Source: Escherichia coli
Lineage (GTDB): Bacteria > Pseudomonadota > Gammaproteobacteria > Enterobacterales > Enterobacteriaceae
Assembly: GCF_003018115.1 (NCBI RefSeq)
Contig: NZ_CP027457.1
Reading direction: 5' to 3' (one strand)
DNA length: 64,000 nt
The first letter of the stretch is position 1; each line of letters begins with the position of its first letter. The notes under the pieces were generated by a model. The model was not told the DNA's origin. It saw nothing but the letters and a program-made list of their open reading frames with translations, and made no database searches. Positions 15,576-34,713 of this stretch are shown piece by piece. The translations under genes were made by a program, and so were the position numbers.

Positions 15576-15625
15576 CGGCGAAAAGCCGGTTTCAGAAACA
15601 CAGCTAAAACAGAAGGATTTTCAGT

Positions 15626-17101: not shown

Positions 17102-17107
17102 CACACC

Positions 17108-17521: not shown

Positions 17522-17524
17522 CAA

Positions 17525-19375: not shown

Positions 19376-20421
19376 GTCCGGGAAATCCCCCGGCAGATAA
19401 AGAGCAGAATGATCCGCTGGCACAGGTTTTCCATAATGCCTGCTCTTACAATTTTTTTGCGATGGCGGAGCTGTTGCACCGCCTGGCAAAGGGTGAAAAG
19501 GGGACGCCAGAATTATCCCTGCGCGACGATCCGGCACAGGAAACCCTGCGTTTCAGCGCCGATGCCAGCCTTGCCTTCCCGTGCAGTGATATCAGTGCGC
19601 TGAAACGGGATACGTCAGGGGCATTCAGGATGACCACCACCTTTATGGGGTTACAGGGGAGCCAGTCGCCTCTCCCCGGTTATTACCTCGATCACCTGGC
19701 CTGGAAAGCGGTACATGAACAAAGTCCGGTAGGTGATTTTCTGGATATGTTCAGCCACCGCCTGACCCAGTTTGTCTGGCATATCTGGCGTAAGTACCGC
19801 TATCACATCAGTTTTCGTAACGGCGGTGTGGATGCGTTCTCGCAGCGCATGTACTCCCTTGTCGGGCTGGGCCACCGCCAGCTTCGCGATAAGCTGGCGA
19901 TTAATCACAGCAAAATGCTGGCGTATTCCGGGATCCTGGCAAATCCGGGACGATCCCCGGAAATTATCTGTGGCCTGGTGTCCCACTGCTTTGATTTGTC
20001 AGAAGTGACGCTGCAAAACTGGCAACGTCGCAAGGTGGATATTGAACCGGATCAGCAAAATAGTCTGGGGAGCTATTCTCTTAAAAATGGCGAAAAACTG
20101 GCGGGAAGATCGGTACTGGGCAACTTTGTTCTGGGTACACAAGTGCCCGATCTCAGCGGAAAATTCCAGCTCAGTATTACCAGCCTGACCCGAAAACAGT
20201 TCCTCTCTTTTCTGCCGTCCGGCGAAAACTTCCTGCCACTGACGATGTTCGTGTCCTTCATCCTGCGCGATCAGCTTGCCTGGGACTTACATCTGGGGCT
20301 GGCGCCGGAGCAGGTGGGCGCAATGCGCCTGGGCGATAACAAAAGTGCGCTGCTGGGCTGGACCAGCTTCCTCGGCACACCGGAAGAACGCCCCTCAGTC
20401 ACCATCAGGGTACGGTCGTAA
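19333..20421 (+). CDS. tssG: T6SS baseplate protein TssG (VasB); start ambiguous (19333 or 19339), overlaps the tssF 3' end
   Basis: 362-aa ORF overlapping tssF by ~40 nt; TssG-like N-terminal region. Confidence 0.85.
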   Translation: MEMDGKNRAASSYLSPGNPPADKEQNDPLAQVFHNACSYNFFAMAELLHRLAKGEKGTPELSLRDDPAQETLRFSADASLAFPCSDISALKRDTSGAFRMTTTFMGLQGSQSPLPGYYLDHLAWKAVHEQSPVGDFLDMFSHRLTQFVWHIWRKYRYHISFRNGGVDAFSQRMYSLVGLGHRQLRDKLAINHSKMLAYSGILANPGRSPEIICGLVSHCFDLSEVTLQNWQRRKVDIEPDQQNSLGSYSLKNGEKLAGRSVLGNFVLGTQVPDLSGKFQLSITSLTRKQFLSFLPSGENFLPLTMFVSFILRDQLAWDLHLGLAPEQVGAMRLGDNKSALLGWTSFLGTPEERPSVTIRVRS

Positions 20422-20424
20422 ATT

Positions 20425-21726
20425 ATGATAATCACGGAGCAGAATATGCCGGAAGAGAAACTACAGACGCTTTCATTGCAGGTCATTAACGGCAGTGAGC
20501 TGGAAAGCGGGCGGGCGGCGCGCTGTCTGTTCACACAGCAGGGAAATGTCGGCCATGGCCCCGAATGCCACTGGTCGGTACAGGATCGTCAGCAGAGCAT
20601 TCCGGCCCAGGCTTTTACCGTTATCCTGCACGATGGCACATTTTGTCTACGCCCGCAGACGGCACAACTGTGGCTGAATCAGGCAAAAGTCACAGCAACA
20701 TCAGACCTGATACAGTTGCGCCAGGGCGATGAGATCCAGATCGGACGGCTGATGGTGAGGGTTCATCTGAACCGGGGAGATATTCCCCATTACGATGAGG
20801 AAATGGCCACTCCCGAAACCATCGTTACCAATCGCGATATGCTCACGGATACCCTGCTATCAACGGAGGGTGCGCCACACTATCCGGGAATGACTCACCG
20901 GCACCAGCTTGCAGACACCGTGGTAAACGGTTTTTCTGCCGATCCACTCCAGGCACTTCAGTCCGAAAGCCTGATTACCACGGGCGATCCGCTTTCAGGC
21001 ATTGCGGCTGTCCGGCCATCGGCACCGCTGTCCGATCCGGCAAGTAATGGGGGGATCAATACTCCGTTTATGGATCTGCCGCCCATTTATGCCAGCCCCG
21101 GCGATCGTAATGACGACGTCTCTGCGGCAGAAATGGCGCAACGCCACCTTGCGGTCACCCCCTTACTGCGCGGTCTTGGCGGCTCGCTTACCATGAGCAA
21201 TTCCGACGATGCGGATGATTTTCTGGAGGAGGCCGGACGAACGTTACAGGCCGCAATAAAAGGTCTGCTCGATTTGCAGCAGCAGCGTAACAGCCTCTCA
21301 GACAAACATTTGCGCCCGCTGGAAGATAACCCGCTGCGCCTGAACATGGATTACGCCACCGCGCTCGACGTGATGTTTGCCGAAGGTAAAAGCCCGGTAC
21401 ATCTGGCGGCTCCCGCCGCCGTCAGTGAAAGCCTGCGCAATGTCCGCCACCACGAAGAAGCTAACCGGGCAGCAATTGTGGAGTCGCTTCGTGTCCTGCT
21501 GGATGCTTTCTCACCACAAAATCTGCTGCGCCGCTTTGTGCAGTACCGCCGCAGCCATGAACTGCGCCAGCCGCTGGATGATGCCGGAGCATGGCAAATG
21601 TACAGCCATTATTACGAAGAACTGGCCTCCGATCGCCAGCAGGGGTTTGAGATGCTGTTTAACGAGGTCTACGCCCAGGTCTATGACCGGGTGCTTCGTG
21701 AAAAACAGCGGGAGCCGGAAGCATGA
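20425..21726 (+). CDS. tagH: FHA-domain protein TagH (Fha, VasC)
   Basis: 433-aa ORF with N-terminal FHA-like region (HWSVQDRQQSIPAQAFTVILHDGTFCLRP). Confidence 0.85.
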   Translation: MIITEQNMPEEKLQTLSLQVINGSELESGRAARCLFTQQGNVGHGPECHWSVQDRQQSIPAQAFTVILHDGTFCLRPQTAQLWLNQAKVTATSDLIQLRQGDEIQIGRLMVRVHLNRGDIPHYDEEMATPETIVTNRDMLTDTLLSTEGAPHYPGMTHRHQLADTVVNGFSADPLQALQSESLITTGDPLSGIAAVRPSAPLSDPASNGGINTPFMDLPPIYASPGDRNDDVSAAEMAQRHLAVTPLLRGLGGSLTMSNSDDADDFLEEAGRTLQAAIKGLLDLQQQRNSLSDKHLRPLEDNPLRLNMDYATALDVMFAEGKSPVHLAAPAAVSESLRNVRHHEEANRAAIVESLRVLLDAFSPQNLLRRFVQYRRSHELRQPLDDAGAWQMYSHYYEELASDRQQGFEMLFNEVYAQVYDRVLREKQREPEA

Positions 21727-22247
21727 ACAGGAAGGCGTTTCTGGCCTGCGTGCTGATGTGCGTCATATTAACCGGCTGCGAAACGGCGAAAAAAATCAGC
21801 GAGGTGATCAAAAACCCGGATATCCAGGTCGGGAGCCTGAAGGAGCAACCTTCGGAAATAACCGTCACCCTGCTGACTGAACCGGACACCAATACCAATG
21901 CGGAGGGTGAATCAGCCGCCGTGGATGTGCAACTGGTGTACCTGACTGACGACTCAAAATTGCAGGCAGCCGACTATGACCAGATAGCCAGTACGCCGCT
22001 ACCGGATGTGCTGGGTAAAAACTATATCGACCACCAGGATTTCAACCTGTTGCCGGACACCATCAAAACCCTGCCGCCGATAAAGCTGGATGAGAAAACG
22101 CAGTTTATTGGTGTCGTGGCCTATTTCTCCGATGACCAGGCCACTGAATGGAAACAAATCGAGACGGTGGAAGGAACCGGCCACCATTACCGCCTGCTGG
22201 TGCATGTACGTCAAAGCAGCATCGAAATGAAAAAAGAGGATGAATAA
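21723..22247 (+). CDS. tssJ: T6SS outer-membrane lipoprotein TssJ (VasD)
   Basis: 174-aa ORF with lipobox LTGC; start overlaps the tagH stop. Confidence 0.88.
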   Translation: MNRKAFLACVLMCVILTGCETAKKISEVIKNPDIQVGSLKEQPSEITVTLLTEPDTNTNAEGESAAVDVQLVYLTDDSKLQAADYDQIASTPLPDVLGKNYIDHQDFNLLPDTIKTLPPIKLDEKTQFIGVVAYFSDDQATEWKQIETVEGTGHHYRLLVHVRQSSIEMKKEDE

Positions 22248-22249
22248 TT

Positions 22250-23581
22250 ATGGCAACCACCCGCAATAAGGTGATGTGGCAGGAAGGGATGCTGATGCGC
22301 CCACACCATTTCCAGCAACAGCAGCGTTACAACGACTACCTGGATAACCAGCGTTTCCGGGCCATGAATGATTTATCCTGGGGATTTACCGAACTCACCC
22401 TCAACAATGAACTGCTGGCGCAGGGTAAGATCATGATTGACAGCGCGTCAGGCACACTGCCTGACGGCACCGTCTTTTCTATCCCCGACCAGGACGCACT
22501 GCCCGATCCGCTGCACCCGCAAAATTTTCCGGACGAAAGAAGCCGCAATATTTACCTCGCTCTGCCGGTCGCCAGTGATGTGAGAAATGAAATCAGCGAC
22601 GGGCGGCGAATCGGGCGTTACCGGCTGAATTATGCCGATGTCCGGGATCTGCATTCAGAAGAAGGCGACGCGCGAACACTGACGCTGGGACAACTGACGC
22701 CGCGCATTATGAGCGGTGCAGAAGATATGAGTGCCTATATTACGCTCCCGCTTTGCCGTATCAGCGATCGCCATGCCGACGGCTCCCTGACGCTGGATGA
22801 CGATTTTATCCCCTCCTGCCAGAATATTCAGGTCAGTAAGAAACTGCGTGTTTATCTCAAAGAGGTACAGGGGGCCATTGGCGGACGGGCAAGCGATCTG
22901 GCAAACCGTATTGGCTCTCCGGCGCAGAGCGGCATCGCGGATGTGGCGGAATTTATGATGTTGCAGTTGCTTAACCGTAACCAGACCCGGTTTACCCATC
23001 GCGCCCGCCGATCCCAGCTCCACCCGGAAGATTTCTACCTTGATCTTGCCGGGTTGCTGGGTGAACTGATGACCTTTACAGAGCCGTCACGCCTGCCCTG
23101 CCCGCTTGATGTGTATGATCATCATGACCTGACCAAAACATTTAAAACACTGTTACCGGAAGTCAAACGGGCGCTGCATACCGTACTGTCGCCAAGAGCG
23201 GTCAATCTGCCGCTGCATCTGCGTGACGGCATCTGGCAGGCCGATGTTCATGACTCGGAACTGCTACAGTCTGCCACCTTTGTACTGGCCGTGGCAGCAA
23301 ATATGCCTGTCGATCAGATCCAGCGTCAGTTTATCCAGCAGTCGAAAATTTCCTCGCCGGAAAAAATCCGCAATATGGTCAGTGTGCAGATCCCGGGTAT
23401 TCCTCTGCGCGCACTGATGGTGGCCCCCCGCCAGCTTCCCTACCATTCCGGGTTCAGCTATTTCGAACTCGACAAGAGCGGCCAGACCTGGACAGAAATG
23501 GCTGCCGCCGGGGCCGTTGCACTGCATGTATCCGGCAGTTTCCCGGATCTGAACATGCAACTGTGGGCGATAAGAGGGTAA
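22250..23581 (+). CDS. tssK: T6SS baseplate protein TssK (VasE)
   Basis: 443-aa ORF; conserved N-terminus (VMWQEGMLMRPHHFQQQ). Confidence 0.9.
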   Translation: MATTRNKVMWQEGMLMRPHHFQQQQRYNDYLDNQRFRAMNDLSWGFTELTLNNELLAQGKIMIDSASGTLPDGTVFSIPDQDALPDPLHPQNFPDERSRNIYLALPVASDVRNEISDGRRIGRYRLNYADVRDLHSEEGDARTLTLGQLTPRIMSGAEDMSAYITLPLCRISDRHADGSLTLDDDFIPSCQNIQVSKKLRVYLKEVQGAIGGRASDLANRIGSPAQSGIADVAEFMMLQLLNRNQTRFTHRARRSQLHPEDFYLDLAGLLGELMTFTEPSRLPCPLDVYDHHDLTKTFKTLLPEVKRALHTVLSPRAVNLPLHLRDGIWQADVHDSELLQSATFVLAVAANMPVDQIQRQFIQQSKISSPEKIRNMVSVQIPGIPLRALMVAPRQLPYHSGFSYFELDKSGQTWTEMAAAGAVALHVSGSFPDLNMQLWAIRG

Positions 23582-23585
23582 GACG

Positions 23586-24347
23586 ATGGATGAGGGGTCA
23601 CTGTCTCTGCCACCATTTACCGGATACGACGAAAAAAGCCTGCGCGACTACCATCTCGCGCTTCGTGGCAACAGCCTGAATCCGATGATCGACGCGGCGA
23701 CGCCGCTACTCGGTATGGTAATGCGCCTTTCCACCATGAACAGCCAGACGATGCCGGAGCATCTTTTTGCTCAGGTGGTGACAGATGTTCAGGCCGTGGA
23801 GCAACTGCTTCAGGAACAGGGCTACGAACCGGGCGTGATTATCTCGTTTCGCTACATCCTCTGCACGTTTATTGATGAAGCGGCGCTCGGTAACGGCTGG
23901 TCGAACAAGAACGAGTGGATCAAGCAGTCATTGCTGGTCCATTTCCACAACGAAGCCTGGGGTGGCGAGAAAGTTTTCATCCTGCTGGAGCGCCTGATCC
24001 GTGAACCCAAACGTTACCAGGATCTGCTGGAATTTCTCTGGCTCTGTTTTTCTCTGGGATTTCGCGGGCGCTACAAAGTGGCAGTACAGGATCAGGGGGA
24101 ATTTGAGCAGATCTACCGCCGTCTGTACCACGTTCTGCATAAACTGCGCGGCGATGCCCCTTTCCCGCTGTTACACCAGGACAAAAAAACCCAGGGCGGG
24201 CGTTATCAGCTCATCAGTCGCCTGACTGTTAAACATATTTTTTGTGGTGGCGTTGTCGTGCTGGCGTTGTTTTACCTGTTCTATCTGTTGCGGCTGGACA
24301 GCCAGACGCAGGACATCCTGCACCAGCTAAACAAATTACTTCGATAA
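23586..24347 (+). CDS. tssL: T6SS membrane-complex protein TssL (DotU-like, VasF), no OmpA extension
   Basis: 253-aa ORF with a single C-terminal transmembrane helix (IFCGGVVVLALFYLFYLL). Confidence 0.88.
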   Translation: MDEGSLSLPPFTGYDEKSLRDYHLALRGNSLNPMIDAATPLLGMVMRLSTMNSQTMPEHLFAQVVTDVQAVEQLLQEQGYEPGVIISFRYILCTFIDEAALGNGWSNKNEWIKQSLLVHFHNEAWGGEKVFILLERLIREPKRYQDLLEFLWLCFSLGFRGRYKVAVQDQGEFEQIYRRLYHVLHKLRGDAPFPLLHQDKKTQGGRYQLISRLTVKHIFCGGVVVLALFYLFYLLRLDSQTQDILHQLNKLLR

Positions 24348-24355: not shown

Positions 24356-27127
24356 ATGATCCAGATTGATCTTCCCACGCTGGTAAAACGGCTGAACCTG
24401 TTCTCCCGCCAGGCGCTGGAGATGGCCGCCTCTGAATGTATGAGTCAGCAGGCTGCGGAAATTACCGTCAGCCATGTGCTTATTCAGATGCTCGCCATGC
24501 CACGCAGTGACCTGCGGGTTATTACCCGCCAGGGCGATATTGGCATGGAAGAGTTGCGCCAGGCGTTGACGGTAGAGAACTACACAACCGCCCGTTCTGC
24601 GGACAGCTACCCGGCGTTTTCCCCGATGCTGGTTGAGTGGCTTAAAGAGGGCTGGCTGCTGGCGTCGGCTGAGATGCAGCACAGCGAACTGCGCGGCGGC
24701 GTGTTGCTGCTGGCCTTGCTGCATTCGCCGCTGCGTTATATACCGCCTGCTGCCGCCCGGCTGTTGACCGGCATTAACCGTGACCGTCTGCAACAGGACT
24801 TTGTGCAGTGGACACAGGAGTCGGCGGAATCAGTCGTGCCGGATGCAGACGGTAAAGGCGCAGGCACACTGACGGACGGCTCTGACACCCTGCTTGCCCG
24901 CTACGCCAAAAACATGACCGCAGACGCCCGTAACGGCAGGCTAGACCCGGTACTGTGCCGCGACCACGAAATCGACCTGATGATCGACATTCTCTGCCGC
25001 CGCCGTAAAAACAACCCGGTGGTGGTGGGCGAAGCAGGCGTGGGTAAAAGCGCGCTGATTGAAGGGCTGGCGCTGCGCATCGTGGCAGGCCAGGTGCCGG
25101 ACAAACTGAAAAACACCGATATCATGACCCTTGACCTGGGCGCATTGCAGGCCGGGGCATCGGTGAAGGGTGAGTTTGAAAAACGCTTCAAGGGGCTGAT
25201 GGCGGAGGTCATTTCCTCTCCGGTGCCGGTCATTCTGTTTATCGACGAAGCGCATACCCTGATTGGCGCGGGCAACCAGCAGGGCGGGCTGGATATCTCC
25301 AACCTGCTGAAACCGGCGCTGGCGCGTGGCGAACTGAAAACCATCGCCGCCACCACCTGGAGCGAGTACAAAAAATACTTCGAGAAAGACGCCGCCCTGT
25401 CGCGCCGCTTCCAGTTAGTGAAGGTCAGCGAACCCAACGCTGCCGAAGCCACCATTATTCTGCGTGGTCTGTCGGCGGTCTATGAACGGTCTCACGGCGT
25501 GCTGATTGACGATGATGCCTTGCAGGCCGCAGCAACGCTGAGCGAACGTTATCTCTCCGGGCGTCAGTTACCGGACAAAGCGATTGATGTGCTGGATACC
25601 GCCTGCGCCCGTGTGGCCATCAACCTGTCGTCGCCGCCGAAGCAAATCTCGGCGCTGACCACTCTGAGCCACCAGCAGGAGGCGGAAATTCGCCAGCTTG
25701 AGCGCGAGCTTCGCATCGGACTGCGTACCGACACATCACGGATGACCGAGGTGCTGGTGCAGTATGATGAAACGCTGACGGCGCTGGATGAACTGGAAGC
25801 GGCCTGGCACCAGCAGCAGACGCTGGTCCGGGAGATTATCGCGCTGCGCCAGCAGTTACTGGGCGTGGCAGAGGACGATGCGGCGCCGTTGCCGGACGCA
25901 GATACCGTGGAGGATACGCAGCCAGAGTCAGAGTCAGAGTCAGAACAGGATAATACCGGTGCCGTACCGGCTGATGAGGCCGACAGAGAACAGCCGGAAG
26001 AGACCGCTGAAACAGTTTCCCCGGTACAGCGGCTGGCCCAGCTCACTGCCGAACTGGACGCCCTGCATAACGACCGGTTGCTGGTCTCCCCGCACGTCGA
26101 TAAAAAACAGATTGCGGCGGTGATTGCCGAATGGACCGGCGTGCCGCTCAACCGCCTGTCGCAGAATGAAATGTCGGTCATCACCGACCTGCCGAAATGG
26201 CTGGGCGACACCATCAAAGGCCAGGACCTGGCGATTGCCAGCCTGCATAAGTATCTACTGACCGCACGCGCCGACCTGCGTCGTCCGGGACGCCCGCTCG
26301 GTGCGTTCCTGCTGGCTGGCCCCAGCGGTGTGGGTAAAACCGAAACCGTCCTGCAACTGGCAGAGCTGCTCTACGGCGGTCGCCAGTACCTGACCACCAT
26401 CAATATGTCCGAATTCCAGGAGAAACACACCGTCTCGCGGCTGATTGGTTCGCCTCCGGGCTACGTTGGCTACGGTGAAGGCGGCGTACTGACCGAAGCG
26501 ATTCGCCAGAAACCCTACTCGGTAGTACTGCTCGATGAAGTGGAAAAAGCGCACCCGGATGTGCTCAACCTGTTCTACCAGGCGTTCGATAAGGGCGAAA
26601 TGGCAGACGGTGAAGGCCGCCTGATTGACTGCAAAAATATCGTCTTCTTCCTGACGTCCAACCTCGGCTACCAGGTAATAGTCGAGCATGCCGATGACCC
26701 GGAAACCATGCAGGAAGTACTGTATCCGGTGCTGGCCGACTTCTTCAAACCTGCCCTGCTGGCGCGTATGGAAGTGGTGCCGTATCTGCCGCTGTCGAAA
26801 GAGACGCTCGCCACCATTATCGCCGGGAAACTGGCCCGTCTGGATAACGTGCTGCGCAGTCGCTTTGGTGCAGAAGTGGCCATTGAACCGGAAGTGACGG
26901 ACGAAATCATGAGCCGCGTCACCCGCGCGGAAAACGGCGCGAGGATGCTGGAATCGGTCATCGATGGCGACATGCTACCGCCGCTCTCGCTGCAGCTGTT
27001 GCAGAAAATGGCGGCTAACACGGCGATTGCCCGGATTCGGTTGTCGGCAGTGGACGGCGCATTTACGGCAGACGTGGAAGATGCTCAGAACGACGAGTCC
27101 GTCACAAAGGATGAAACGGTTTTATGA
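24356..27127 (+). CDS. clpV: T6SS AAA+ ATPase ClpV (TssH, VasG)
   Basis: ORF 24242..27127; start taken at MIQIDLPTLVKRLN (24356); two Walker A motifs (GEAGVGKSA, GPSGVGKTE). Confidence 0.93.
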   Translation: MIQIDLPTLVKRLNLFSRQALEMAASECMSQQAAEITVSHVLIQMLAMPRSDLRVITRQGDIGMEELRQALTVENYTTARSADSYPAFSPMLVEWLKEGWLLASAEMQHSELRGGVLLLALLHSPLRYIPPAAARLLTGINRDRLQQDFVQWTQESAESVVPDADGKGAGTLTDGSDTLLARYAKNMTADARNGRLDPVLCRDHEIDLMIDILCRRRKNNPVVVGEAGVGKSALIEGLALRIVAGQVPDKLKNTDIMTLDLGALQAGASVKGEFEKRFKGLMAEVISSPVPVILFIDEAHTLIGAGNQQGGLDISNLLKPALARGELKTIAATTWSEYKKYFEKDAALSRRFQLVKVSEPNAAEATIILRGLSAVYERSHGVLIDDDALQAAATLSERYLSGRQLPDKAIDVLDTACARVAINLSSPPKQISALTTLSHQQEAEIRQLERELRIGLRTDTSRMTEVLVQYDETLTALDELEAAWHQQQTLVREIIALRQQLLGVAEDDAAPLPDADTVEDTQPESESESEQDNTGAVPADEADREQPEETAETVSPVQRLAQLTAELDALHNDRLLVSPHVDKKQIAAVIAEWTGVPLNRLSQNEMSVITDLPKWLGDTIKGQDLAIASLHKYLLTARADLRRPGRPLGAFLLAGPSGVGKTETVLQLAELLYGGRQYLTTINMSEFQEKHTVSRLIGSPPGYVGYGEGGVLTEAIRQKPYSVVLLDEVEKAHPDVLNLFYQAFDKGEMADGEGRLIDCKNIVFFLTSNLGYQVIVEHADDPETMQEVLYPVLADFFKPALLARMEVVPYLPLSKETLATIIAGKLARLDNVLRSRFGAEVAIEPEVTDEIMSRVTRAENGARMLESVIDGDMLPPLSLQLLQKMAANTAIARIRLSAVDGAFTADVEDAQNDESVTKDETVL

Positions 27128-27867
27128 GCAGGTTGCGCGTTTTCCGGCAGACAGGATGGTTTATCGCGGGCCTGATGACGGGCTTACCCGCCACTGCCGC
27201 GCCCGCAGAAGCATCGTCAATGGCCAGTGTGGCGGTCGCCGTCGCCACCACGACCCCGCCGGATGCGACAGCCACGTTACAGGCCATGCAGTCCTGTCGG
27301 CGGGAGTCCGCGGCGCTGGAGCGGCTTGACTGCTATGACCGCCTGCTGGCACCGCTGTCCCCGTCAGGGTTTGACGGGGCGCTGGTCAAAGCCGGTTTTG
27401 TGGGCGAGGCCTGGACCCGCGCCACAGAGCAGGAAAAACGCCGCGAGGGCAACACCACAGAACTGCTGGTGACGCAGGTGCCGGGGGAGCGCCCGACGGT
27501 GGTGATAACCACCCCGGCTATCGGCCATGTTCCGCCGCGCCCGGTGCTGATGTTCAGTTGCGTGGACAATATCACCCGGATGCAGGTGGCGCTGATGCAC
27601 CCTCTGGATGTCCATGATATCGCCGTCACTCTGAATGCCGACAGCCGGGCATTGCGCAGCCACTGGTTTGTGCGCGAGAACGGCACCCTGCTGGAGTCCA
27701 GCCGGGGGCTGTCCGGGATTGATGAAATTAAGCAACTGTTCGGCGCAAAAACGCTGACAGTGGATACCGGCGCAGATAACGCCGCAGGAAAGCTGACCTT
27801 TAACATTGACGGGCTGGCAAGGGCGATTGCCCCCCTGCGCGATGCCTGCCACTGGGCGGGAGAATAA
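27124..27867 (+). CDS. T6SS-associated secreted protein, VasI-like
   Basis: 247-aa ORF with N-terminal signal peptide; ATGA overlap with the clpV stop; position equivalent to vasI in the V. cholerae gene order. Confidence 0.6.
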   Translation: MSRLRVFRQTGWFIAGLMTGLPATAAPAEASSMASVAVAVATTTPPDATATLQAMQSCRRESAALERLDCYDRLLAPLSPSGFDGALVKAGFVGEAWTRATEQEKRREGNTTELLVTQVPGERPTVVITTPAIGHVPPRPVLMFSCVDNITRMQVALMHPLDVHDIAVTLNADSRALRSHWFVRENGTLLESSRGLSGIDEIKQLFGAKTLTVDTGADNAAGKLTFNIDGLARAIAPLRDACHWAGE

Positions 27868-27871
27868 AAAT

Positions 27872-29284
27872 ATGGCAATGGACTTACGCGATCCGAATGT
27901 CTGGATATCGCACCTGCTGGAAAACCTGCCAGAAGAAAAACTGGCATCGGCGCTGAAAGATGACAACCCGAACTGGGAGTATATCGACGGCGAAATCGTC
28001 AAACTGGGATCTCTGGCCCACAGTCAACTGGATATCCCGGAACTCCAGCGCCGGGGGCTGGTCATTCTGGCTTCGGAGAGTAAGGACTTTCGTCTGCTGG
28101 CGCATCTGCTGAGAACCCTGCAACACGCCGGTGATCCTCATCTCGCATTGCGCCTGCTGGCGCTGTATGTGGAGCATTACTGGTCGGTGGCTGCGCCGCA
28201 GAATATGGCACATAAAAAACGCTTTGCCAGCCAGGTCATTAAACGCTTTGAAACAGGTATTGAAGGCTTTTCACAGAACGCCGCCACAGCGCAGCGCGAC
28301 GCGCTGTCAGGGGAACTGGCGAAACTGGCGCAGTGCTGGCAGTCACATAACGCCCCGGAACTGGCACTGGCTACCGATGATCTTTTTGCCCTGTACCAGC
28401 GTGCGTTTAATCGTGCGGCACCGGCTCCTGCCCCCACTCCGGCGGCCTCCGATAGTTCACCACAGACCACCGCCACGTCTGAAAGCGGCGTGACGCAACC
28501 CAGTGCTCCGACTCCCCAAATCGCCATCGACAGTCACGACGACAAAGCCTGGCGCGACACGCTGTTAAAAGTGGCGGCTATTTTATGTGAACGCCAGCCG
28601 GACTCGCCGCAGGGCTATCGCCTGCGCCGCCATGCCCTGTGGCAATCCATCACCAGTACACCCCAGGCGGAAAGCGATGGACGTACCCCATTGGCTGCGG
28701 TCTCTGCCGATATGGTGGCGGATTACCAGTCCCGGCTTGCCAGCGCGGATATGGCGCTGTGGCAGCAGGTTGAGAAAAGCGTATTGCTGGCTCCTTACTG
28801 GCTGGACGGTCACTGTCTTTCTGCACAGACGGCACTGCGTCTGGGTTACAAACAGGTGGCAGACACCATCCGCGATGAGGTCATCCGCTTCCTTGAGCGT
28901 CTGCCCCAGCTTACCGGGCTGCTGTTTAATGACCGCACACCGTTTCTCAGTGAGCAGACGAAACAATGGCTGGCTGCTTCGCCCGACGGCAAAGTTGCAC
29001 CGGTTGCGCAAATCGGTGAGGAATCGCAGGCAGCCAGAGCCTGTTTTGCTGGGCAGGGTCTGGAGGCGGCGCTGCGATATCTGGACATGCTACCCGAAGG
29101 CGATCCCCGCGATCAGTTTCACCGCCAGTACCTTGCCGCACAGTTGACGGAGGAGGCGGGGCTGATACAGCTTGCGCAGCAACAGTACCGGATGTTGTTG
29201 ATGATAGGGAGTCAGATGATGGTGTCTGACTGGGAGCCATCATTACTTACGCAGCTTGAACAAAAATTCACGGCAGAACAATAA
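27872..29284 (+). CDS. tssA: T6SS protein TssA (ImpA N-terminal domain, VasJ)
   Basis: ORF 27806..29284; start taken at MAMDLRDPNVW (27872); ImpA_N-like N-terminal region. Confidence 0.85.
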   Translation: MAMDLRDPNVWISHLLENLPEEKLASALKDDNPNWEYIDGEIVKLGSLAHSQLDIPELQRRGLVILASESKDFRLLAHLLRTLQHAGDPHLALRLLALYVEHYWSVAAPQNMAHKKRFASQVIKRFETGIEGFSQNAATAQRDALSGELAKLAQCWQSHNAPELALATDDLFALYQRAFNRAAPAPAPTPAASDSSPQTTATSESGVTQPSAPTPQIAIDSHDDKAWRDTLLKVAAILCERQPDSPQGYRLRRHALWQSITSTPQAESDGRTPLAAVSADMVADYQSRLASADMALWQQVEKSVLLAPYWLDGHCLSAQTALRLGYKQVADTIRDEVIRFLERLPQLTGLLFNDRTPFLSEQTKQWLAASPDGKVAPVAQIGEESQAARACFAGQGLEAALRYLDMLPEGDPRDQFHRQYLAAQLTEEAGLIQLAQQQYRMLLMIGSQMMVSDWEPSLLTQLEQKFTAEQ

Positions 29285-29302: not shown

Positions 29303-32300
29303 GTGTTCAGATTACCAACACCCCGACTACTCAGCGGACTCAAATCAGCCCTACGCCCGGCGATGCCCCGGTTTAAAGTCTCCGCTTTCTGGCTGCTGAT
29401 ACTGGCGTGGATTTTTCTGCTGGTATGGATCTGGTGGAAAGGCTCGACGTGGACGCTGTATGAAGAACAGTGGCTCAAACCACTGGCGAACCGCTGGCTG
29501 GCAACGGCGGCATGGGGGATTATCGCCCTGGTGTGGCTTACCGTCCGGGTGATGAAGCGCCTGCAACAACTTGAAAAAATGCAAAAGCAGCAGCGCGAGG
29601 AGGCCATTGATCCGCTCAGTGTGGAGCTGAACGCCCAGCAGCGTTACCTTGACCGCTGGCTGCTGCGCCTGCAACGCCATCTCGACAACCGCCGTTTCCT
29701 GTGGCAGTTGCCGTGGTATATGGTCATCGGCCCGGCGGGCAGTGGCAAAACGACACTGCTGGGCGAGGGGTTTCCGTCAGACATTATTTATGCCCCGGAA
29801 GGCGCGCGCGGCACAGAACAACGCCTGTACCTTACGCCCCATGTCGGTAAACAGGCGGTGATCTTTGATATCGACGGCACACTCTGCGCTCCCGCTGATG
29901 CGGATATCCTGCATCGCCGTCTGTGGGAACATGCCCTCGGCTGGCTGAAAGAAAAGCGCGCGCGCCAGCCGCTGAACGGGATTATTCTGACACTCGATTT
30001 ACCCGATCTGCTTACCGCAGACAAACGCCGCCGCGAGCATCTGTTACAGACGCTGCGCAGCCGCTTGCAGGATATACGCCAGCATCTTCACTGCCAGTTA
30101 CCGGTTTACGTGGTACTCACCCGGCTTGATTTATTGCAGGGTTTTGCCGCCCTGTTCCAGTCACTGAACAGACAGGATCGCGATGCGATTCTGGGCGTCA
30201 CGTTCACCCGCCGCGCCCATGAAAATGATGACTGGCGAACAGAGTTGAATGCTTTCTGGCAGACATGGGTGGATCGAATGAACCTAGCGTTGCCGGATCT
30301 GATGGTCGCTCAGACTCACACCCGCGCGTCTTTATTTAGTTTTTCCCGCCAGATGCAGGGAAGCCGTGAACCGCTGGTGTCACTGCTTGAGGGTCTACTT
30401 GATGGCGAAAATATGAACGTGATGCTGCGTGGTGTCTATCTCACCTCTTCGCTTCAGCGTGGACAGATGGATGATATATTCACCCAGTCTGCCGCCCGCC
30501 AGTACCGGCTGGGCAATAACCCACTGGCGTCCTGGCCTCTGGTGGACACCGCGCCTTATTTCACCCGCAGCTTGTTCCCGCAGGCATTACTCGCAGAGCC
30601 TAATCTGGCAACGGAGAGCCGCGCCTGGCTGATGCGTTCCCGTCGCCGCCTGACGGTTTTCTCTACCACAGGAGGCGTGGCGGCACTGCTGCTCATCACC
30701 GGCTGGCATCACTATTACAACGGTAACTATCAGTCCGGCATCACCGTGCTTAAGCAGGCCAAAGCCTTTATGGATGTGCCGCCTCCACAGGGGGAAGATG
30801 ACTACGGCAACCTGCAACTGCCGCTGCTGAACCCGGTACGCGATGCCACACTGGCCTATGGCGACTGGGGCGACCGCAGCCGTCTGGCCGATATGGGACT
30901 GTACCAGGGACGACGTATCGGGCCTTATGTGGAACAGACCTATCTGCAACTGCTGGAGCAACGTTACCTGCCCTCGCTGTTTAACGGGCTGGTTAAAGCG
31001 ATGAATGCCGCGCCGCCGGAGAGTGAAGAAAAACTCGCGGTGCTGCGCGTGATGCGAATGCTGGAGGACAAAAGCGGACGTAACAATGAGGTGGTGAAGC
31101 AGTATATGGCAAAACGCTGGAGCGAAAAGTTCCACGGCCAGCGCGATATCCAGGCACAACTGATGTCCCATCTTGACTACGCGCTGGCTCATACTGACTG
31201 GCACGCAGAGCGTCAGGCGGGCGACGGTGACGCCATCAGCCGCTGGACGCCATATGACAAGCCCGTGGTATCAGCACAGAAAGAACTGAGCAAACTGCCT
31301 GTCTACCAGCGGGTTTACCAGAGCCTGAAAACGCGGGCGCTGGGCGTTCTTCCTGCCGACCTCAATCTGCGTGACCAGGTAGGGCCAACCTTTGACCAGG
31401 TGTTTACATCTGCCGATGACAACAAACTGGTTGTTCCACAGTTTCTTACCCGTTACGGCCTGCAAAGCTATTTTGTAAAACAGCGCGATGAACTGGTTGA
31501 ACTGACGGCGATGGATTCCTGGGTACTTAACCTTACCCGCAGCGTGAAATACAGTGACGCCGACCGCGCGGAAATCCAGCGCCAGCTCACCGAGCAGTAT
31601 ATCAGCGACTACACCGCCACCTGGCGGGCCGGGATGGACAATCTGAATATCCGCAATTTTGAGTCCATCGGACAACTGACCGGGGCGCTGGAGCAGGTTA
31701 TCAGCGGCGACCAGCCTTTGCAGCGGGCGCTGACCGTGCTGCGTGACAACACACAGCCAGGCGTCTTTTCTGAAAAACTCTCTGCCAAAGAACGGGATGA
31801 GGCCCTGGCAGAGCCGGACTACCAGTTACTCACCCGTCTCGGGCATGAGTTCGCCCCGGAAAACAGTACCCTGGCAGTACAGAAAGACAAAGAAAGCACG
31901 ATGCAGGCAGTATATCAGCAACTCACCGAGTTGCACCGCTACCTGCTGGCAATCCAGAACGCGCCTGTACCAGGGAAATCGGCGCTGAAAGCCGTGCAGT
32001 TACGGCTTGATCAGAACAGCAGCGATCCGATATTCGCCACCCGCCAGATGGCAAAAACGCTGCCTGCTCCGCTCAACCGCTGGGTTGGCAGGCTGGCTGA
32101 CCAGGCCTGGCATGTGGTGATGGTGGAGGCCGTTCACTATATGGAAGTGGACTGGCGCGACAGCGTGGTGAAACCGTTTAACGAGCAACTGGCAAATAAC
32201 TATCCGTTTAATCCGCGTTCTGCACAGGATGCCTCACTGGATGCCTTCGAACGCTTCTTTAAACCGGATGGCATACTGGATACCTTCTACCAGCAGAACC

Positions 32301-32827
32301 TGAAGCTGTTTATCGATAATGACCTGAGTCTGGAGGATGGCGATAACAGCGTCATTATTCGCGAAGATATTATTGCGCAACTGGAAACTGCGCAGAAAAT
32401 CCGTGACATCTTCTTCAGCAAACAGAACGGTCTGGGAACATCCTTTGCCGTGGAAACGGTATCGCTTTCAGGCAATAAACGCCGCAGTGTACTGAACCTT
32501 GACGGTCAGTTAGTCGATTACAGCCAGGGCCGTAACTATACCGCCCATCTGGTCTGGCCTAACAACATGCGCGAAGGCAACGAAAGTAAGCTGACGCTCA
32601 TCGGCACCAGCGGCAACGCGCCGCGCAGTATCAGCTTCAGCGGGCCGTGGGCGCAGTTCCGCCTGTTCGGGGCCGGACAACTGACCGGAGTACAGGATGG
32701 CAACTTTACCGTGCGCTTTAGCGTGGACGGTGGCGCGATGACCTACCGTGTGCATACCGACACGGAAGATAACCCGTTCAGCGGTGGGTTGTTCAGCCAG
32801 TTTGGTCTGTCAGACACACTGTACTGA
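29303..32827 (+). CDS. tssM: T6SS membrane-complex protein TssM (IcmF, VasK); start at GTG 29303 or ATG 29363
   Basis: ~1170 aa; N-terminal transmembrane helices; Walker A GPAGSGKTTL. Confidence 0.92.
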   Translation: MFRLPTPRLLSGLKSALRPAMPRFKVSAFWLLILAWIFLLVWIWWKGSTWTLYEEQWLKPLANRWLATAAWGIIALVWLTVRVMKRLQQLEKMQKQQREEAIDPLSVELNAQQRYLDRWLLRLQRHLDNRRFLWQLPWYMVIGPAGSGKTTLLGEGFPSDIIYAPEGARGTEQRLYLTPHVGKQAVIFDIDGTLCAPADADILHRRLWEHALGWLKEKRARQPLNGIILTLDLPDLLTADKRRREHLLQTLRSRLQDIRQHLHCQLPVYVVLTRLDLLQGFAALFQSLNRQDRDAILGVTFTRRAHENDDWRTELNAFWQTWVDRMNLALPDLMVAQTHTRASLFSFSRQMQGSREPLVSLLEGLLDGENMNVMLRGVYLTSSLQRGQMDDIFTQSAARQYRLGNNPLASWPLVDTAPYFTRSLFPQALLAEPNLATESRAWLMRSRRRLTVFSTTGGVAALLLITGWHHYYNGNYQSGITVLKQAKAFMDVPPPQGEDDYGNLQLPLLNPVRDATLAYGDWGDRSRLADMGLYQGRRIGPYVEQTYLQLLEQRYLPSLFNGLVKAMNAAPPESEEKLAVLRVMRMLEDKSGRNNEVVKQYMAKRWSEKFHGQRDIQAQLMSHLDYALAHTDWHAERQAGDGDAISRWTPYDKPVVSAQKELSKLPVYQRVYQSLKTRALGVLPADLNLRDQVGPTFDQVFTSADDNKLVVPQFLTRYGLQSYFVKQRDELVELTAMDSWVLNLTRSVKYSDADRAEIQRQLTEQYISDYTATWRAGMDNLNIRNFESIGQLTGALEQVISGDQPLQRALTVLRDNTQPGVFSEKLSAKERDEALAEPDYQLLTRLGHEFAPENSTLAVQKDKESTMQAVYQQLTELHRYLLAIQNAPVPGKSALKAVQLRLDQNSSDPIFATRQMAKTLPAPLNRWVGRLADQAWHVVMVEAVHYMEVDWRDSVVKPFNEQLANNYPFNPRSAQDASLDAFERFFKPDGILDTFYQQNLKLFIDNDLSLEDGDNSVIIREDIIAQLETAQKIRDIFFSKQNGLGTSFAVETVSLSGNKRRSVLNLDGQLVDYSQGRNYTAHLVWPNNMREGNESKLTLIGTSGNAPRSISFSGPWAQFRLFGAGQLTGVQDGNFTVRFSVDGGAMTYRVHTDTEDNPFSGGLFSQFGLSDTLY

Positions 32828-32837
32828 GGAGGCAGGG

Positions 32838-34187
32838 ATGAATAGTAACGTACTGACACAAACTATCGTTACCGGCAGTGACCCGCGCGGGCTGCCGGAA
32901 TTCAGCGCCATCCGCGAGGAAATAAACAAAGCCAGCCACCCGTCACAGCCTGAGCTGAACTGGAAACTGGTGGAGTCGCTGGCGCTGGCGATTTTTAAAG
33001 CCAACGGTGTGGATTTACACACCGCCACCTACTATACGCTTGCCCGGACACGGACACAGGGACTGGCGGGATTCTGCGAAGGTGCGGAACTGCTGGCGGC
33101 AATGGTAAGCCACGACTGGGATAAGTTCTGGCCGCAGGGCGGCCCGGCGCGTACTGAAATGCTGGACTGGTTTAACTCCCGAACCGGCAATATTCTGCGT
33201 CAGCAAATCTCCTTTGCGGAATCTGATCTGCCGCTGATCTACCGCACAGAGCGGGCATTGCAGCTTATCTGCGACAAGCTTCAGCAGGTAGAGCTGAAGC
33301 GCGTTCCGCGCGTGGAGAATCTGCTCTATTTTATGCAGAACACGCGTAAACGGCTTGAACCCCAGCTGAAGAGTAACACTGAGAACGCCGCACAGACCAC
33401 GGTCAGAACGCTGATTTATGCCCCGGAAACACAGCCATCTTCCACACCAGAAGCGGTAGTGCCTCCCCTGCCCGGCCTGCCTGAGATGAAAGTGGAAGTG
33501 CGCAGTCTGACAGAGAATCCCCCACAGGCCAGTGTGATAAAGCAAGGCAGTACGGTAAGAGGGTTTATCGCAGGGATCGCCTGTTCAGTGGCTGTCGCCT
33601 CAGCATTGTGGTGGTGGCAGGTCTATCCGGTGCAGCAGCAACTGTTACAGGTTAACGACACCGCTCAGGGCGCAGCAACGGTGTGGATGGCCTCACCTGA
33701 ACTCGAAAACTATGAGCGCAGGCTGCAACAACTTCTTGATACCTCCCCGGTACAGCCGCTGGAAACCGGGATGCAGATGATGCGTGTTGCCGACAGTCGC
33801 TGGCCGGAAAGCCTGCAACAGCAACAGGCCTCGACACAATGGAATGAGGCACTCAAAACCCGCGCACAGAATAGCCCGCAGTTGCGTGGCTGGTTGCAGA
33901 CCCGCCAGGACTTACATGCTTTTGCAGATCTAGTGATGCAGCGCGAGAAAGAGGGACTCACCCTTTCCTATATCAAAAATGTCATCTGGCAGGCGGAGCG
34001 GGGACTGGGGCAGGAAACACCCGTTGAGTCTCTGTTGACGCAGTACCAGGATGCCCGTGCGCAGAAGCAGAATACAGATGCGCTGGAAAAACAAATTAAT
34101 GAGCGACTCGAAGGCGTGTTAAGCCGCTGGCTGCTGCTGAATAATAATACGATACCGACGATAAAAAAAGGCATTGAATTTCAATAA
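32838..34187 (+). CDS. ImpA-N domain T6SS accessory protein (VasL-like)
   Basis: ORF 32748..34187; start taken at MNSNVLTQTI (32838, GGAGG upstream); N-terminal region resembles TssA/ImpA_N; internal hydrophobic helix (IAGIACSVAVASALWWW). Confidence 0.65.
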   Translation: MNSNVLTQTIVTGSDPRGLPEFSAIREEINKASHPSQPELNWKLVESLALAIFKANGVDLHTATYYTLARTRTQGLAGFCEGAELLAAMVSHDWDKFWPQGGPARTEMLDWFNSRTGNILRQQISFAESDLPLIYRTERALQLICDKLQQVELKRVPRVENLLYFMQNTRKRLEPQLKSNTENAAQTTVRTLIYAPETQPSSTPEAVVPPLPGLPEMKVEVRSLTENPPQASVIKQGSTVRGFIAGIACSVAVASALWWWQVYPVQQQLLQVNDTAQGAATVWMASPELENYERRLQQLLDTSPVQPLETGMQMMRVADSRWPESLQQQQASTQWNEALKTRAQNSPQLRGWLQTRQDLHAFADLVMQREKEGLTLSYIKNVIWQAERGLGQETPVESLLTQYQDARAQKQNTDALEKQINERLEGVLSRWLLLNNNTIPTIKKGIEFQ

Positions 34188-34213
34188 CATTCATGAATAC
34201 AAAGGAGTTTTAA

Positions 34214-34693
34214 ATGGCGAATTTAATTTATTTAACACTAAATGGTGATAATCAAGGGCTCATTTCAAGTGGTTGTTCATCACAACCATCCATTGGAAAT
34301 AAAGCTCAAACAGCACACATTGATCAAATTATGATTTATGAATTCATGCATGGATTAAATCGAGATCAAAACGTCAACCATCATCATTTGACAATAAAAA
34401 AACCTATAGATAAAGCATCACCCTTATTAGGCAAAGCAATTTGCGACAATGAATTATTGACATGTGATTTTTCCTTTTATCGTACAAATAAATTTGGAAT
34501 TAATGAACTGTACTATAAAATCAAATTAACTGGAGCAAAGATAAGCGACATTCATGTCTCTATATCACATATTGTTGTTGATAACAGCGTTCAACCCGAA
34601 GAGTCAGTTTCTTTCAGTTATGAGTCAATTATATGGGAGCATTGTTCCGCTGGCACTAGTGCATACAGTTTATGGGAAGATCGTCTTTTTTAA
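34214..34693 (+). CDS. Divergent Hcp paralog (159 aa) in the AT-rich terminal module
   Basis: Aligns with the cluster Hcp in several blocks (YLTLNGDNQGLISSG vs YISITGQTQGNITAG; SVSFSYESIIWEHCSAGTSAYSLWED vs EVSLAYRKIEWEHVKSGTSGADDW). Confidence 0.8.
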   Translation: MANLIYLTLNGDNQGLISSGCSSQPSIGNKAQTAHIDQIMIYEFMHGLNRDQNVNHHHLTIKKPIDKASPLLGKAICDNELLTCDFSFYRTNKFGINELYYKIKLTGAKISDIHVSISHIVVDNSVQPEESVSFSYESIIWEHCSAGTSAYSLWEDRLF

Positions 34694-34713
34694 AAACATA
34701 TGGGATTATTATA

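What the first reader, a model, noticed from the sequence alone, without database searches (positions are those of the whole stretch)
27100..27900. Vas-type gene order but no vasH-like sigma-54 activator
In the V. cholerae cluster this organisation matches, a sigma-54-dependent activator gene (vasH) sits between clpV and vasI. Here clpV and the vasI-like gene overlap by ATGA, leaving no room, and I found no obvious GG-N10-GC sigma-54 promoter upstream of tssB. Regulation of this cluster is therefore likely different (see the AT-rich control region) or supplied in trans.
Basis: partly seen in the sequence, partly recalled or inferred. Interest (0 to 1): 0.4.

Follow-up and report, generated by a model that had tools for sequence, protein, structure and literature searches.

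The report
E. coli T6SS-2 lacks its VasH regulator
This is the common E. coli type VI secretion island at tRNA-Asp (aspV): it has no vasH activator gene and no sigma-54 promoter, which is the normal, already annotated state of this cluster and looks like an old gene loss.

Summary
The clpV stop codon and the vasI start codon share ATGA at 27124-27127. No enhancer-binding protein (bEBP) gene lies anywhere in the 64 kb. A position weight matrix (PWM) built from 42 ChIP-seq-mapped E. coli sigma-54 promoters finds nothing in any intergenic region of the island. The best score in the hcp/tssB control region is 3.5 bits, against a training median of 14.7.

The thing itself is ordinary. It is the aspV-linked, vas-type E. 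coli "T6SS-2" island. It occurs in 3067 of 5426 complete E. coli genomes, and RefSeq annotates the same tssH/vasI overlap.

One premise is off. In V. cholerae V52, VasH and RpoN drive the hcp operons and vgrG3, not vipA/tssB. I therefore also scanned upstream of hcp and vgrG; both were negative.

Comparison of 84 vas-type clusters shows three states of the slot:
- Full VasH (Hafnia/Obesumbacterium, Alkalispirillum).
- A 265-aa VasH that lacks the AAA+ module (Yersinia, Serratia, Photorhabdus, Proteus and others).
- An empty slot.

The window's empty-slot clade is nested inside the short-VasH group (198/200 bootstraps), which implies secondary loss.

Expression most likely runs from sigma-70 promoters in the 33% GC intergenic region, silenced by H-NS as shown for the EHEC cluster of the same type. 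Interest is low. The short VasH family is the only mildly new by-product.

The parts
24356..27127 (+). clpV / tssH (AAA+ sheath-recycling ATPase). The ATG at 24356 follows the tssL stop at 24345-24347.
   Evidence: Pfam AAA_2, AAA_lid_9 and ClpB_D2-small. The start was read. RefSeq annotates the equivalent gene as tssH.
27124..27127 (+). ATGA overlap of the clpV stop (TGA) and the vasI start (ATG). This is the empty vasH slot.
   Evidence: Sequence read directly. RefSeq E. coli has the same 4-nt overlap.
27124..27867 (+). vasI / tagO, a 247-aa accessory protein. The N-terminus looks like a signal peptide (my reading of the sequence, not run through a predictor). It has four invariant Cys residues.
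   Evidence: PF11319 VasI, E 3.7e-53. Alignment invariants C58, C70, C146 and C242. Homologues are named VasI/TagO.
27872..29284 (+). tssA (vasJ)
   Evidence: PF16989 T6SS_VasJ plus ImpA_N. ATG at 27872.
14119..14815 (.). Divergent hcp/tssB intergenic control region, 697 bp and 32.9% GC (28.3% in its core). It has no sigma-54 site. It is the presumed site of sigma-70 promoters and H-NS silencing.
   Evidence: GC content. PWM maximum 3.5 bits. One bare GG-N10-GC scoring -5.8. Sigma-70-like matches at chance level. At least 95% identical in 2235 E. coli genomes.
13600..14118 (-). hcp, divergent from tssB. By analogy with V. cholerae this is the gene a VasH/sigma-54 promoter would be expected to serve.
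   Evidence: PF05638, E 5e-31. V. cholerae data.
11249..13390 (-). vgrG
   Evidence: TIGR03361, E 1.9e-188.
6668..11173 (-). Rhs core protein (effector)
   Evidence: NF041261 RHS_core, 2513 bits.
14816..24347 (+). tssB, a 74-aa ORF, then tssC, tssE, tssF, tssG, tagH, tssJ, tssK and tssL
   Evidence: Pfam assignments. RefSeq annotation of the near-identical locus.
29303..34693 (+). tssM (start codon uncertain), vasL and a second hcp
   Evidence: IcmF-related domains, VasL plus ImpA_N, and T6SS_HCP. Sequence around the tssM start read.
37669..37745 (-). tRNA-Asp (aspV), the right boundary of the island
   Evidence: ARAGORN. It is flanked by dnaQ and rnhA in the RefSeq locus.

Best explanation
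The window carries the aspV-linked, vas-type (V. cholerae-like) type VI secretion island that the E. coli literature calls T6SS-2.

In this lineage the regulator slot between clpV and vasI is empty. The two genes abut with an ATGA stop/start overlap, which suggests translational coupling.

The emptiness is a secondary, stepwise loss. Distant vas-type clusters encode a full sigma-54 activator (VasH) in the slot. A large Enterobacterales group encodes a 265-aa derivative that keeps the VasH N-terminal domain and the Fis-type helix-turn-helix but has lost the AAA+ sigma-54 module. The Escherichia/Citrobacter/Enterobacter clade, nested within that group, has lost the gene altogether.

Consistent with this, no -24/-12 promoter is left upstream of hcp, vgrG, tssB or the second hcp.

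Transcription therefore most likely starts from sigma-70-type promoters in the 697-bp, 33% GC divergent hcp/tssB intergenic region. It would be controlled by host global regulators, chiefly H-NS silencing.

Shown here: the gene content, the junction, the absence of a bEBP gene and of sigma-54 sites, the three states of the slot, and the tree topology.

Inferred: translational coupling, the exact promoters, and H-NS control. The H-NS control is taken from experiments on the EHEC EDL933 cluster of the same type.
For: - Gene order and families.
- ATGA overlap.
- Island context (fadE-ivy-yafV ... aspV-dnaQ-rnhA).
- The 6-kb clpV-vasI-tssA region is present in 3067 of 5426 complete E. coli genomes.
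- No bEBP motif or homologue in the window.
- No sigma-54 site by IUPAC pattern or by ChIP-seq-derived PWM.
- Partial positive control: a 12.5-bit site lies 63 bp upstream of hcp in the vasH-bearing Alkalispirillum locus L088.
- Full bEBP between clpV and vasI in L082, L085, L087 and L088.
- The short protein is the VasH N-domain plus HTH_8. hhalign gives 98% probability and E 1.5e-13, with support from BLASTP and Pfam HTH_8.
- None of the 80 loci fetched through VasI has a bEBP motif within 10 kb on either side.
- In the neighbour-joining tree, the empty-slot Enterobacteriaceae clade is monophyletic in 200/200 bootstraps. It groups with a short-VasH subclade in 198/200. The short-VasH clusters are monophyletic in only 2/200.
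- H-NS silencing of the EHEC aspV cluster: PMC5363993.
- The intergenic region is 32.9% GC against 55.8% for the cluster genes.
Against: - The promoters are not mapped. Sigma-70-like matches in the intergenic region are at chance level (5 found, 3.8 +/- 2.2 expected).
- A PWM negative is not proof. A site bound by sigma-54 in vivo inside metQ scores only 5.5 bits.
- The tree is neighbour-joining on three proteins, rooted by assuming that the full-VasH clusters are the outgroup.
- Vibrio and Aeromonas themselves were not among the loci retrieved.
- The Pasteurellaceae and Budviciaceae-like empty-slot clusters branch outside the short-VasH group, so losses were multiple and the order of events at the base is not resolved.
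- The rest of the source genome could not be searched for an orphan activator.
- The EDL933 sequence was not compared with the window directly.
Confidence: 0.75

Rival explanations
1. Regulation in trans. An orphan VasH-like enhancer-binding protein elsewhere in the chromosome activates a cryptic or degenerate sigma-54 promoter in the island.
For: - The source genome outside the 64 kb could not be searched.
- Weak-scoring sigma-54 sites can still be bound in vivo. The metQ intragenic site is conserved exactly at 54192-54208 and scores 5.5 bits.
- K. pneumoniae and other T6SSs without a cluster-encoded bEBP are reported as RpoN-dependent (review PMC10482370).
Against: - The best PWM score in the hcp/tssB intergenic region is 3.5 bits, and at most 2.7 bits upstream of vgrG and the second hcp. 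All are below every training site.
- Only one bare GG-N10-GC occurs in that region, scoring -5.8.
- The CFT073 GAFTGA census lists 11 activators, none tied to T6SS.
- The paper that reports rpoN-deletion transcriptomes of CFT073 and EDL933 never mentions T6SS or hcp. The cluster is silent in LB, so this evidence is weak.
Confidence: 0.05
2. Ancestral absence. The vas-type cluster of Enterobacteriaceae never had a gene in this slot, and vasH (full or short) was inserted independently in other lineages.
For: - The clpV/vasI junction is seamless, with no pseudogene remnant.
- Empty-slot clusters also occur in Pasteurellaceae and in Budvicia, Pragia and Limnobaculum, which branch outside the short-VasH group.
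Against: - The window's clade is nested inside the short-VasH clusters (198/200).
- The short protein is homologous to the VasH N-domain and sits in the identical slot. Independent insertion of related genes at the same junction is less parsimonious than loss.
- Full VasH occupies the same slot in an Enterobacterales member, Hafnia/Obesumbacterium.
Confidence: 0.12
3. Decaying cluster. The missing regulator is one symptom of a T6SS that is being inactivated in this strain, and nothing regulates it because it is no longer used.
For: - EHEC T6SS-2 is reported to be degenerating, with tssM and clpV lesions (PMC12981562).
- The closest RefSeq locus has a frameshifted vasL and a truncated cargo gene.
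- Expression in vitro is very low in EHEC.
Against: - In the window every core gene, including vasL, is an intact ORF with full-length Pfam matches.
- The empty slot is shared by a whole clade of genera with intact clusters. It therefore predates any strain-level decay.
- EHEC T6SS-2 is functional when derepressed.
Confidence: 0.08

Closest known systems
E. coli T6SS-2 (Journet & Cascales scheme): the aspV-linked island of EHEC O157:H7 EDL933 (z0243-z0275) and many commensal and ExPEC strains
   Same: - Same insertion site at tRNA-Asp (aspV), next to dnaQ and rnhA.
- Same gene order, including the tssH/vasI overlap.
- Rhs next to VgrG, and an FHA-domain gene.
- 98.8% DNA identity to RefSeq genomes over 6 kb.
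   Different: Nothing of substance. Differences are strain-level: an intact vasL and an intact 312-aa cargo ORF where strain 100181 has a frameshift and a fragment, and a different Rhs tip.
V. cholerae vas cluster (VCA0107-VCA0123) with VasH (VCA0117)
   Same: - Core and accessory gene order from tssB to vasL.
- Presence of the VasI (VC_A0118 family), VasJ and VasL accessory genes.
   Different: - No vasH and no sigma-54 promoters here.
- Here hcp, vgrG and rhs sit divergently next to tssB rather than in auxiliary clusters.
- A 74-aa TssC-fragment ORF lies between tssB and tssC.
- In V. cholerae, VasH and RpoN act on the hcp operons and vgrG3, not on vipA.
Vas-type clusters of Yersinia, Serratia, Photorhabdus, Xenorhabdus, Proteus and Providencia that carry a 260-266-aa "Fis family transcriptional regulator" between clpV and vasI
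   Same: - Closest phylogenetic neighbours of the window's cluster.
- Identical flanking genes: clpV upstream, vasI and tssA downstream.
- Also no AAA+ bEBP and no GAFTGA motif.
   Different: They retain a VasH remnant (N-terminal domain plus HTH_8). The window has none.
H-NS-silenced horizontally acquired T6SS islands (Salmonella SPI-6, EHEC T6SS)
   Same: - An AT-rich promoter region inside a GC-richer island.
- No dedicated activator in the cluster.
- Low expression in vitro, reported for the EHEC cluster.
   Different: - H-NS binding was not measured for this sequence.
- SPI-6 belongs to a different T6SS phylogenetic group (my own knowledge).

Membership tests
Vas-type T6SS / E. coli T6SS-2 | All 13 core genes (tssA-M, hcp, vgrG) are present | tested here: met
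   Pfam and NCBIfam hits above the curated cut-offs for TssB, C, E, F, G, J, K, L, ClpV, TssA (VasJ), TssM, Hcp (two copies) and VgrG.
Vas-type T6SS / E. coli T6SS-2 | Vas gene order with the accessory genes tagH (FHA), vasI/tagO and vasL | tested here: met
   The order is tssB-C-E-F-G-tagH-J-K-L-clpV-vasI-tssA-tssM-vasL. RefSeq T6SS-2 loci have the same order. The T6SS-2 criteria are in PMC10711316.
Vas-type T6SS / E. coli T6SS-2 | Chromosomal insertion at tRNA-Asp (aspV), with an Rhs effector next to vgrG | tested here: met
   tRNA-Asp at 37669-37745 next to dnaQ. RHS core at 6668-11173. EHEC description.
VasH/sigma-54-regulated T6SS | A cluster-encoded bEBP with the AAA+ Sigma54_activat domain (GAFTGA) between clpV and vasI | tested here: not met
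   ATGA overlap. No signature motif in six frames. No tblastn hit below E = 0.099.
VasH/sigma-54-regulated T6SS | A -24/-12 (GG-N10-GC) promoter upstream of hcp, vgrG or the structural operon | tested here: not met
   PWM maxima are 3.5 bits (hcp/tssB), 2.1 (vgrG-hcp) and 2.7 (vasL-hcp2), against a training minimum of 6.5. Supported.
VasH/sigma-54-regulated T6SS | Expression depends on rpoN | not testable with these tools
   Needs an rpoN mutant. No T6SS genes are mentioned in the paper reporting EDL933 and CFT073 rpoN-deletion transcriptomes.
Short VasH (AAA+-less) vas-type clusters | A gene of about 265 aa (VasH N-domain plus HTH_8) between clpV and vasI | tested here: not met
   There is no room at the junction, and tblastn with three short VasH proteins gives no significant hit.
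H-NS-silenced acquired island | A promoter region much more AT-rich than the surrounding island | tested here: met
   32.9% GC (core 28.3%) against 55.8% for the cluster genes.
H-NS-silenced acquired island | H-NS occupancy, and derepression in a hns mutant | not testable with these tools
   Reported for the EDL933 aspV cluster of the same type (up to 60-fold; PMC5363993). Not measured for this sequence.

The most novel reading that the evidence does not exclude
The regulator slot of vas-type T6SS clusters records a stepwise escape from sigma-54 control within Enterobacterales. Full VasH (Hafnia/Obesumbacterium) was cut down to an AAA+-less "mini-VasH", which keeps the sensory N-domain and the Fis-type helix-turn-helix. 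It is found in Yersinia, Serratia, Photorhabdus, Xenorhabdus, Proteus and Providencia. The gene was then deleted entirely in the Escherichia/Citrobacter/Enterobacter lineage.

If mini-VasH is a functional, sigma-54-independent T6SS regulator, it would be a family I could not find described in the searchable literature. The E. coli cluster would then be the end-point in which control passed wholly to host global regulators.
Probability: 0.45. Interest if true: 0.45.

Novelty: already known. Interest (0 to 1): 0.15.

Why it matters
For the window itself it matters little. This is the standard layout of a very common E. coli island, and its lack of a dedicated activator, together with H-NS silencing, is already in the literature and the annotation.

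The useful outcomes are a correction and a context.
- Correction: the absence of a sigma-54 promoter at tssB would not be informative even in V. cholerae. The decisive sites upstream of hcp and vgrG have now been formally scanned and are negative.
- Context: the empty slot is the last step of a reductive series, from full VasH to AAA+-less VasH to nothing. This explains why some enterobacterial T6SSs answer to sigma-54 and others to xenogeneic silencing.
- It also points to an uncharacterised candidate regulator in Yersinia, Proteus and Photorhabdus.

Tried and rejected
- The search for related loci with a 71-sequence VasI alignment failed because no stretch was conserved enough. A 16-sequence alignment worked. 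It returned only Enterobacterales and Pasteurellaceae, so Vibrio and Aeromonas are not in the locus set.
- Bernard et al. 2011 (PMC3133059), the paper on T6SS sigma-54 promoters, is not held. I used Dong & Mekalanos 2012 and Bonocora 2015 instead.
- The search for homologous proteins with the short VasH found only close relatives and no full-length VasH. Full VasH was obtained through the look-up of encoding contigs on distant VasI representatives.
- The P0179 contig was too short to be useful.
- L086 has vasI directly after tssL, with no clpV, and is not informative.
- L010 (Lelliottia nimipressuralis) was flagged "full" by my gap rule. That is an artefact of a split clpV ORF: the tblastn gap is 63 nt and no bEBP motif is present.
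- The sigma-70 consensus scan of the control region is at chance level and does not locate the promoters.
- A count of H-NS motif-like 10-mers (TCGATAAATT, recalled from memory) gave 3 in the intergenic region against 1.2 per kb window-wide. This simply tracks AT content, so I give it no weight.
- Literature searches for a described truncated VasH in Yersinia, Proteus or Photorhabdus found none. Only open-access text was searched.


Full report
**What is in the window.**

The ORF layout and family scans identify a complete type VI secretion island.
- On the minus strand: an Rhs core protein (6668-11173), vgrG (11249-13390) and hcp (13600-14118).
- Then a 697-bp intergenic region (14119-14815).
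- On the plus strand: tssB, tssC, tssE, tssF, tssG, tagH (FHA), tssJ, tssK, tssL, clpV/tssH (24356-27127), vasI/tagO (27124-27867), tssA/vasJ (27872-29284), tssM, vasL, a second hcp (34214-34693), and low-GC cargo ORFs.

The island lies between fadE-ivy-yafV with ISAs1 transposase remnants on the left and tRNA-Asp (37669-37745), dnaQ, rnhA... rrnH, metNIQ on the right.

A 6-kb probe across clpV-vasI-tssA matches 3067 of 5426 complete E. coli genomes, with a best identity of 98.8%. RefSeq annotates the same genes in the same order. By gene content (Rhs, FHA gene) and order, this is the cluster the E. coli literature calls T6SS-2 (PMC10711316). The same kind of island is described at aspV in EHEC EDL933 (PMC5363993).

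**Checking the observation.**

The clpV stop codon and the vasI start codon overlap as ATGA at 27124-27127. RefSeq annotates the identical 4-nt overlap. There is indeed no room for a gene.

I extended the check to the whole window.
- No GAF[TS]GA, bEBP-type Walker A or ESELFGH motif occurs in any of the six frames.
- tblastn with four full-length VasH-like proteins and three short VasH proteins, all taken from related clusters, gives nothing better than E = 0.099.

For sigma-54 promoters I ran two scans.
- The IUPAC consensus TGGCAC-N5-TTGCW with up to 2 mismatches gives 34 hits against 43 +/- 7 expected. None lies in the control region.
- I built a PWM from the 42 intergenic sigma-54 sites mapped by ChIP-seq in E. 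coli K-12 (Bonocora et al. 2015, PMC4591121, Table 1). Leave-one-out scores of the training sites are minimum 6.5, 10th percentile 11.9 and median 14.7 bits.
- The best PWM scores in the island's intergenic regions are 3.5 bits (hcp/tssB), 2.1 (vgrG-hcp), 1.0 (rhs-vgrG) and 2.7 (vasL-hcp2).
- Window-wide, 9 sites reach 11.9 bits against 6.8 +/- 2.1 expected. The maximum, 14.3 bits (antisense inside tssM), is below the mean maximum of shuffled sequence, 16.0 +/- 1.6.
- The only bare GG-N10-GC in the hcp/tssB region scores -5.8.

As a partial positive control, the same PWM finds a 12.5-bit site 63 bp upstream of hcp in a vasH-bearing cluster of Alkalispirillum mobile (L088).

As a caution, an in vivo sigma-54 site inside metQ (IA02 of Bonocora et al.) is conserved exactly at 54192-54208 and scores only 5.5 bits. 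Weak sites can therefore be bound. Even so, the T6SS control region is below that score.

**A correction to the premise.**

In V. cholerae V52, ChIP-seq, RNA-seq and qPCR show that RpoN and VasH control the hcp operons and vgrG3, and have no effect on vipA/vipB or the main cluster (PMC3439928; see also the review PMC10482370). The informative promoters are therefore those of hcp and vgrG. Here hcp shares the divergent intergenic region with tssB. I scanned both strands of that region, and the regions upstream of vgrG and hcp2. All were negative.

**What occupies the slot in relatives.**

Using a VasI alignment I fetched 80 loci, one genome per species. I added five loci found through distant VasI representatives. 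Three states appear.

1. Full VasH. L082, L085, L087 and L088 carry a 502-523-aa protein between clpV and vasI.
   - It has Sigma54_activat, and usually HTH_8.
   - L085 is Hafnia alvei/Obesumbacterium proteus (I place these in Hafniaceae, within Enterobacterales, from my own knowledge). L088 is Alkalispirillum mobile.
2. Short VasH. 37 loci carry a 260-266-aa gene in the same slot. They come from Yersinia (including Y. pestis), Serratia, Photorhabdus, Xenorhabdus, Proteus, Providencia, Edaphovirga, Entomohabitans, Enterobacillus, and a second cluster in Trabulsiella.
   - The gene has a C-terminal Fis-type HTH_8 and no AAA+ domain.
   - Its residues 37-186 align with the N-terminal domain of full VasH. 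hhalign gives 98% probability and E 1.5e-13. Pairwise BLASTP gives E 5e-5 with collinear positions.
   - It is therefore VasH with the sigma-54-activating module removed.
   - Databases call it only "Fis family transcriptional regulator". I found no paper describing it.
3. Empty slot. Here clpV abuts vasI. This state is found in Escherichia, Citrobacter, Pseudocitrobacter, Enterobacter, Lelliottia, Buttiauxella, Rahnella, Yokenella, Atlantibacter, Superficieibacter, Phytobacter and the first Trabulsiella cluster. It is also found in Budvicia, Pragia and Limnobaculum and in Pasteurellaceae.

None of the 80 VasI-fetched loci has a bEBP signature within 10 kb on either side.

**Polarity.**

I built a neighbour-joining tree from concatenated ClpV, VasI and TssA (1543 columns, 84 taxa), rooted on the full-VasH clusters.
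- The empty-slot Enterobacteriaceae clade that contains the window is monophyletic in 200/200 bootstraps.
- It groups with the Edaphovirga/Entomohabitans/Enterobacillus/Trabulsiella-b subclade, which carries short VasH, in 198/200.
- The short-VasH clusters are monophyletic in only 2/200.

The parsimonious reading is that the ancestor of the E. coli cluster carried the short gene and then lost it. The Pasteurellaceae and Budviciaceae-like clusters emptied the slot independently.

The limits of this analysis are: a distance method, three proteins, an assumed outgroup rooting, and no Vibrio or Aeromonas sequences in the set.

**How the cluster is most likely controlled.**

With neither activator nor -24/-12 promoter, sigma-54 control is very unlikely.

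The hcp/tssB intergenic region is 32.9% GC (28.3% in its core), against 55.8% for the cluster genes. It is at least 95% identical in 2235 E. coli genomes.

In EHEC EDL933, the aspV-linked T6SS island has very low expression in vitro. It is derepressed up to 60-fold by hns deletion, after which Hcp secretion was examined (PMC5363993).

I infer sigma-70-type promoters in this region under H-NS silencing and host global regulators. The promoters themselves are not identified, because consensus matches there are at chance level. A 14-bp-stem hairpin with a T-run directly after hcp (13591-13560, minus strand) may attenuate read-through into vgrG.

An orphan VasH acting in trans is unlikely. A GAFTGA census of UPEC CFT073 lists 11 activators, none linked to T6SS, and the paper that reports rpoN-deletion transcriptomes of CFT073 and EDL933 never mentions T6SS genes (PMC9017345). 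I could not search the source genome beyond this window.

**Verdict.**

The feature is the ordinary, already annotated state of a very common E. coli island, so novelty is "already known" and interest is low.

The comparative by-product is the only mildly new element, and it lies outside the window. It is a reductive series from full VasH through an AAA+-less VasH to an empty slot, with an undescribed candidate regulator family in Yersinia, Proteus and Photorhabdus.

Noticed in passing
L033-L038, L040, L042-L046, L048, L050, L053, L055-L057, L059-L063, L065-L071, L073-L076, L078, L080, L081 (about 9100-10000 in each locus; for example L044:9133-9930, Y. pestis): A conserved 260-266-aa gene lies between clpV and vasI. 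It is homologous to the VasH N-terminal domain (hhalign 98%, E 1.5e-13) and has a Fis-type HTH_8, but the whole AAA+ sigma-54 module is missing. It is annotated only as "Fis family transcriptional regulator", and I found no paper describing it. It is a possible sigma-54-independent T6SS regulator.
   Followed up: partly
window 15351-15575 (+): A 74-aa ORF fills the 310-bp gap between tssB and tssC. It is a diverged copy of TssC residues 50-102 (34% identity, E 2e-8), and RefSeq calls it a hypothetical protein. It could be a duplicated fragment of the N-terminal region of the sheath large subunit. Its function is unknown.
   Followed up: partly
window 54192-54208 (-): This is an exact copy of the intragenic, antisense sigma-54 binding site IA02 that ChIP-seq mapped inside metQ of E. 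coli K-12 (TTGGCGTCGATATCGCC). It scores only 5.5 bits with my PWM, which shows that weak sites can be bound in vivo.
   Followed up: yes
window 13560-13591 (-): A 14-bp-stem, GC-rich hairpin followed by a T-run lies immediately after the hcp stop codon, ahead of vgrG. It looks like an intrinsic terminator or attenuator that could set a high Hcp to VgrG ratio.
   Followed up: no
window 34672-37341: A block of low-GC (35%) ORFs lies after the second hcp: 312, 151 and 118 aa on the plus strand and 266 aa on the minus strand. The four I scanned have no Pfam hits, and the 312-aa and 266-aa ORFs also have no NCBIfam hits. In the RefSeq locus the equivalents are a truncated hypothetical, a peptidoglycan-binding protein, a DUF1311 protein and hypotheticals. 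They are probably Hcp-linked effector and immunity cargo. The 312-aa ORF is intact here but fragmented in strain 100181.
   Followed up: no
window 4113-5822 (-): An ISAs1-family transposase (378 aa) and a truncated second copy (175 aa) mark the left edge of the island, between yafV and the Rhs gene. A low-GC stretch (37-39%) lies at 5000-7000.
   Followed up: no
L086 (JGI metagenome 3300007190), 6074-7726: This vas-type cluster has vasI directly after tssL, with neither clpV nor vasH in the locus.
   Followed up: no
L085 (Hafnia alvei / Obesumbacterium proteus), 5496-7004: A full-length sigma-54 activator is retained between clpV and vasI in a member of Enterobacterales. All three states of the slot (full, short, empty) therefore coexist within one order.
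   Followed up: partly
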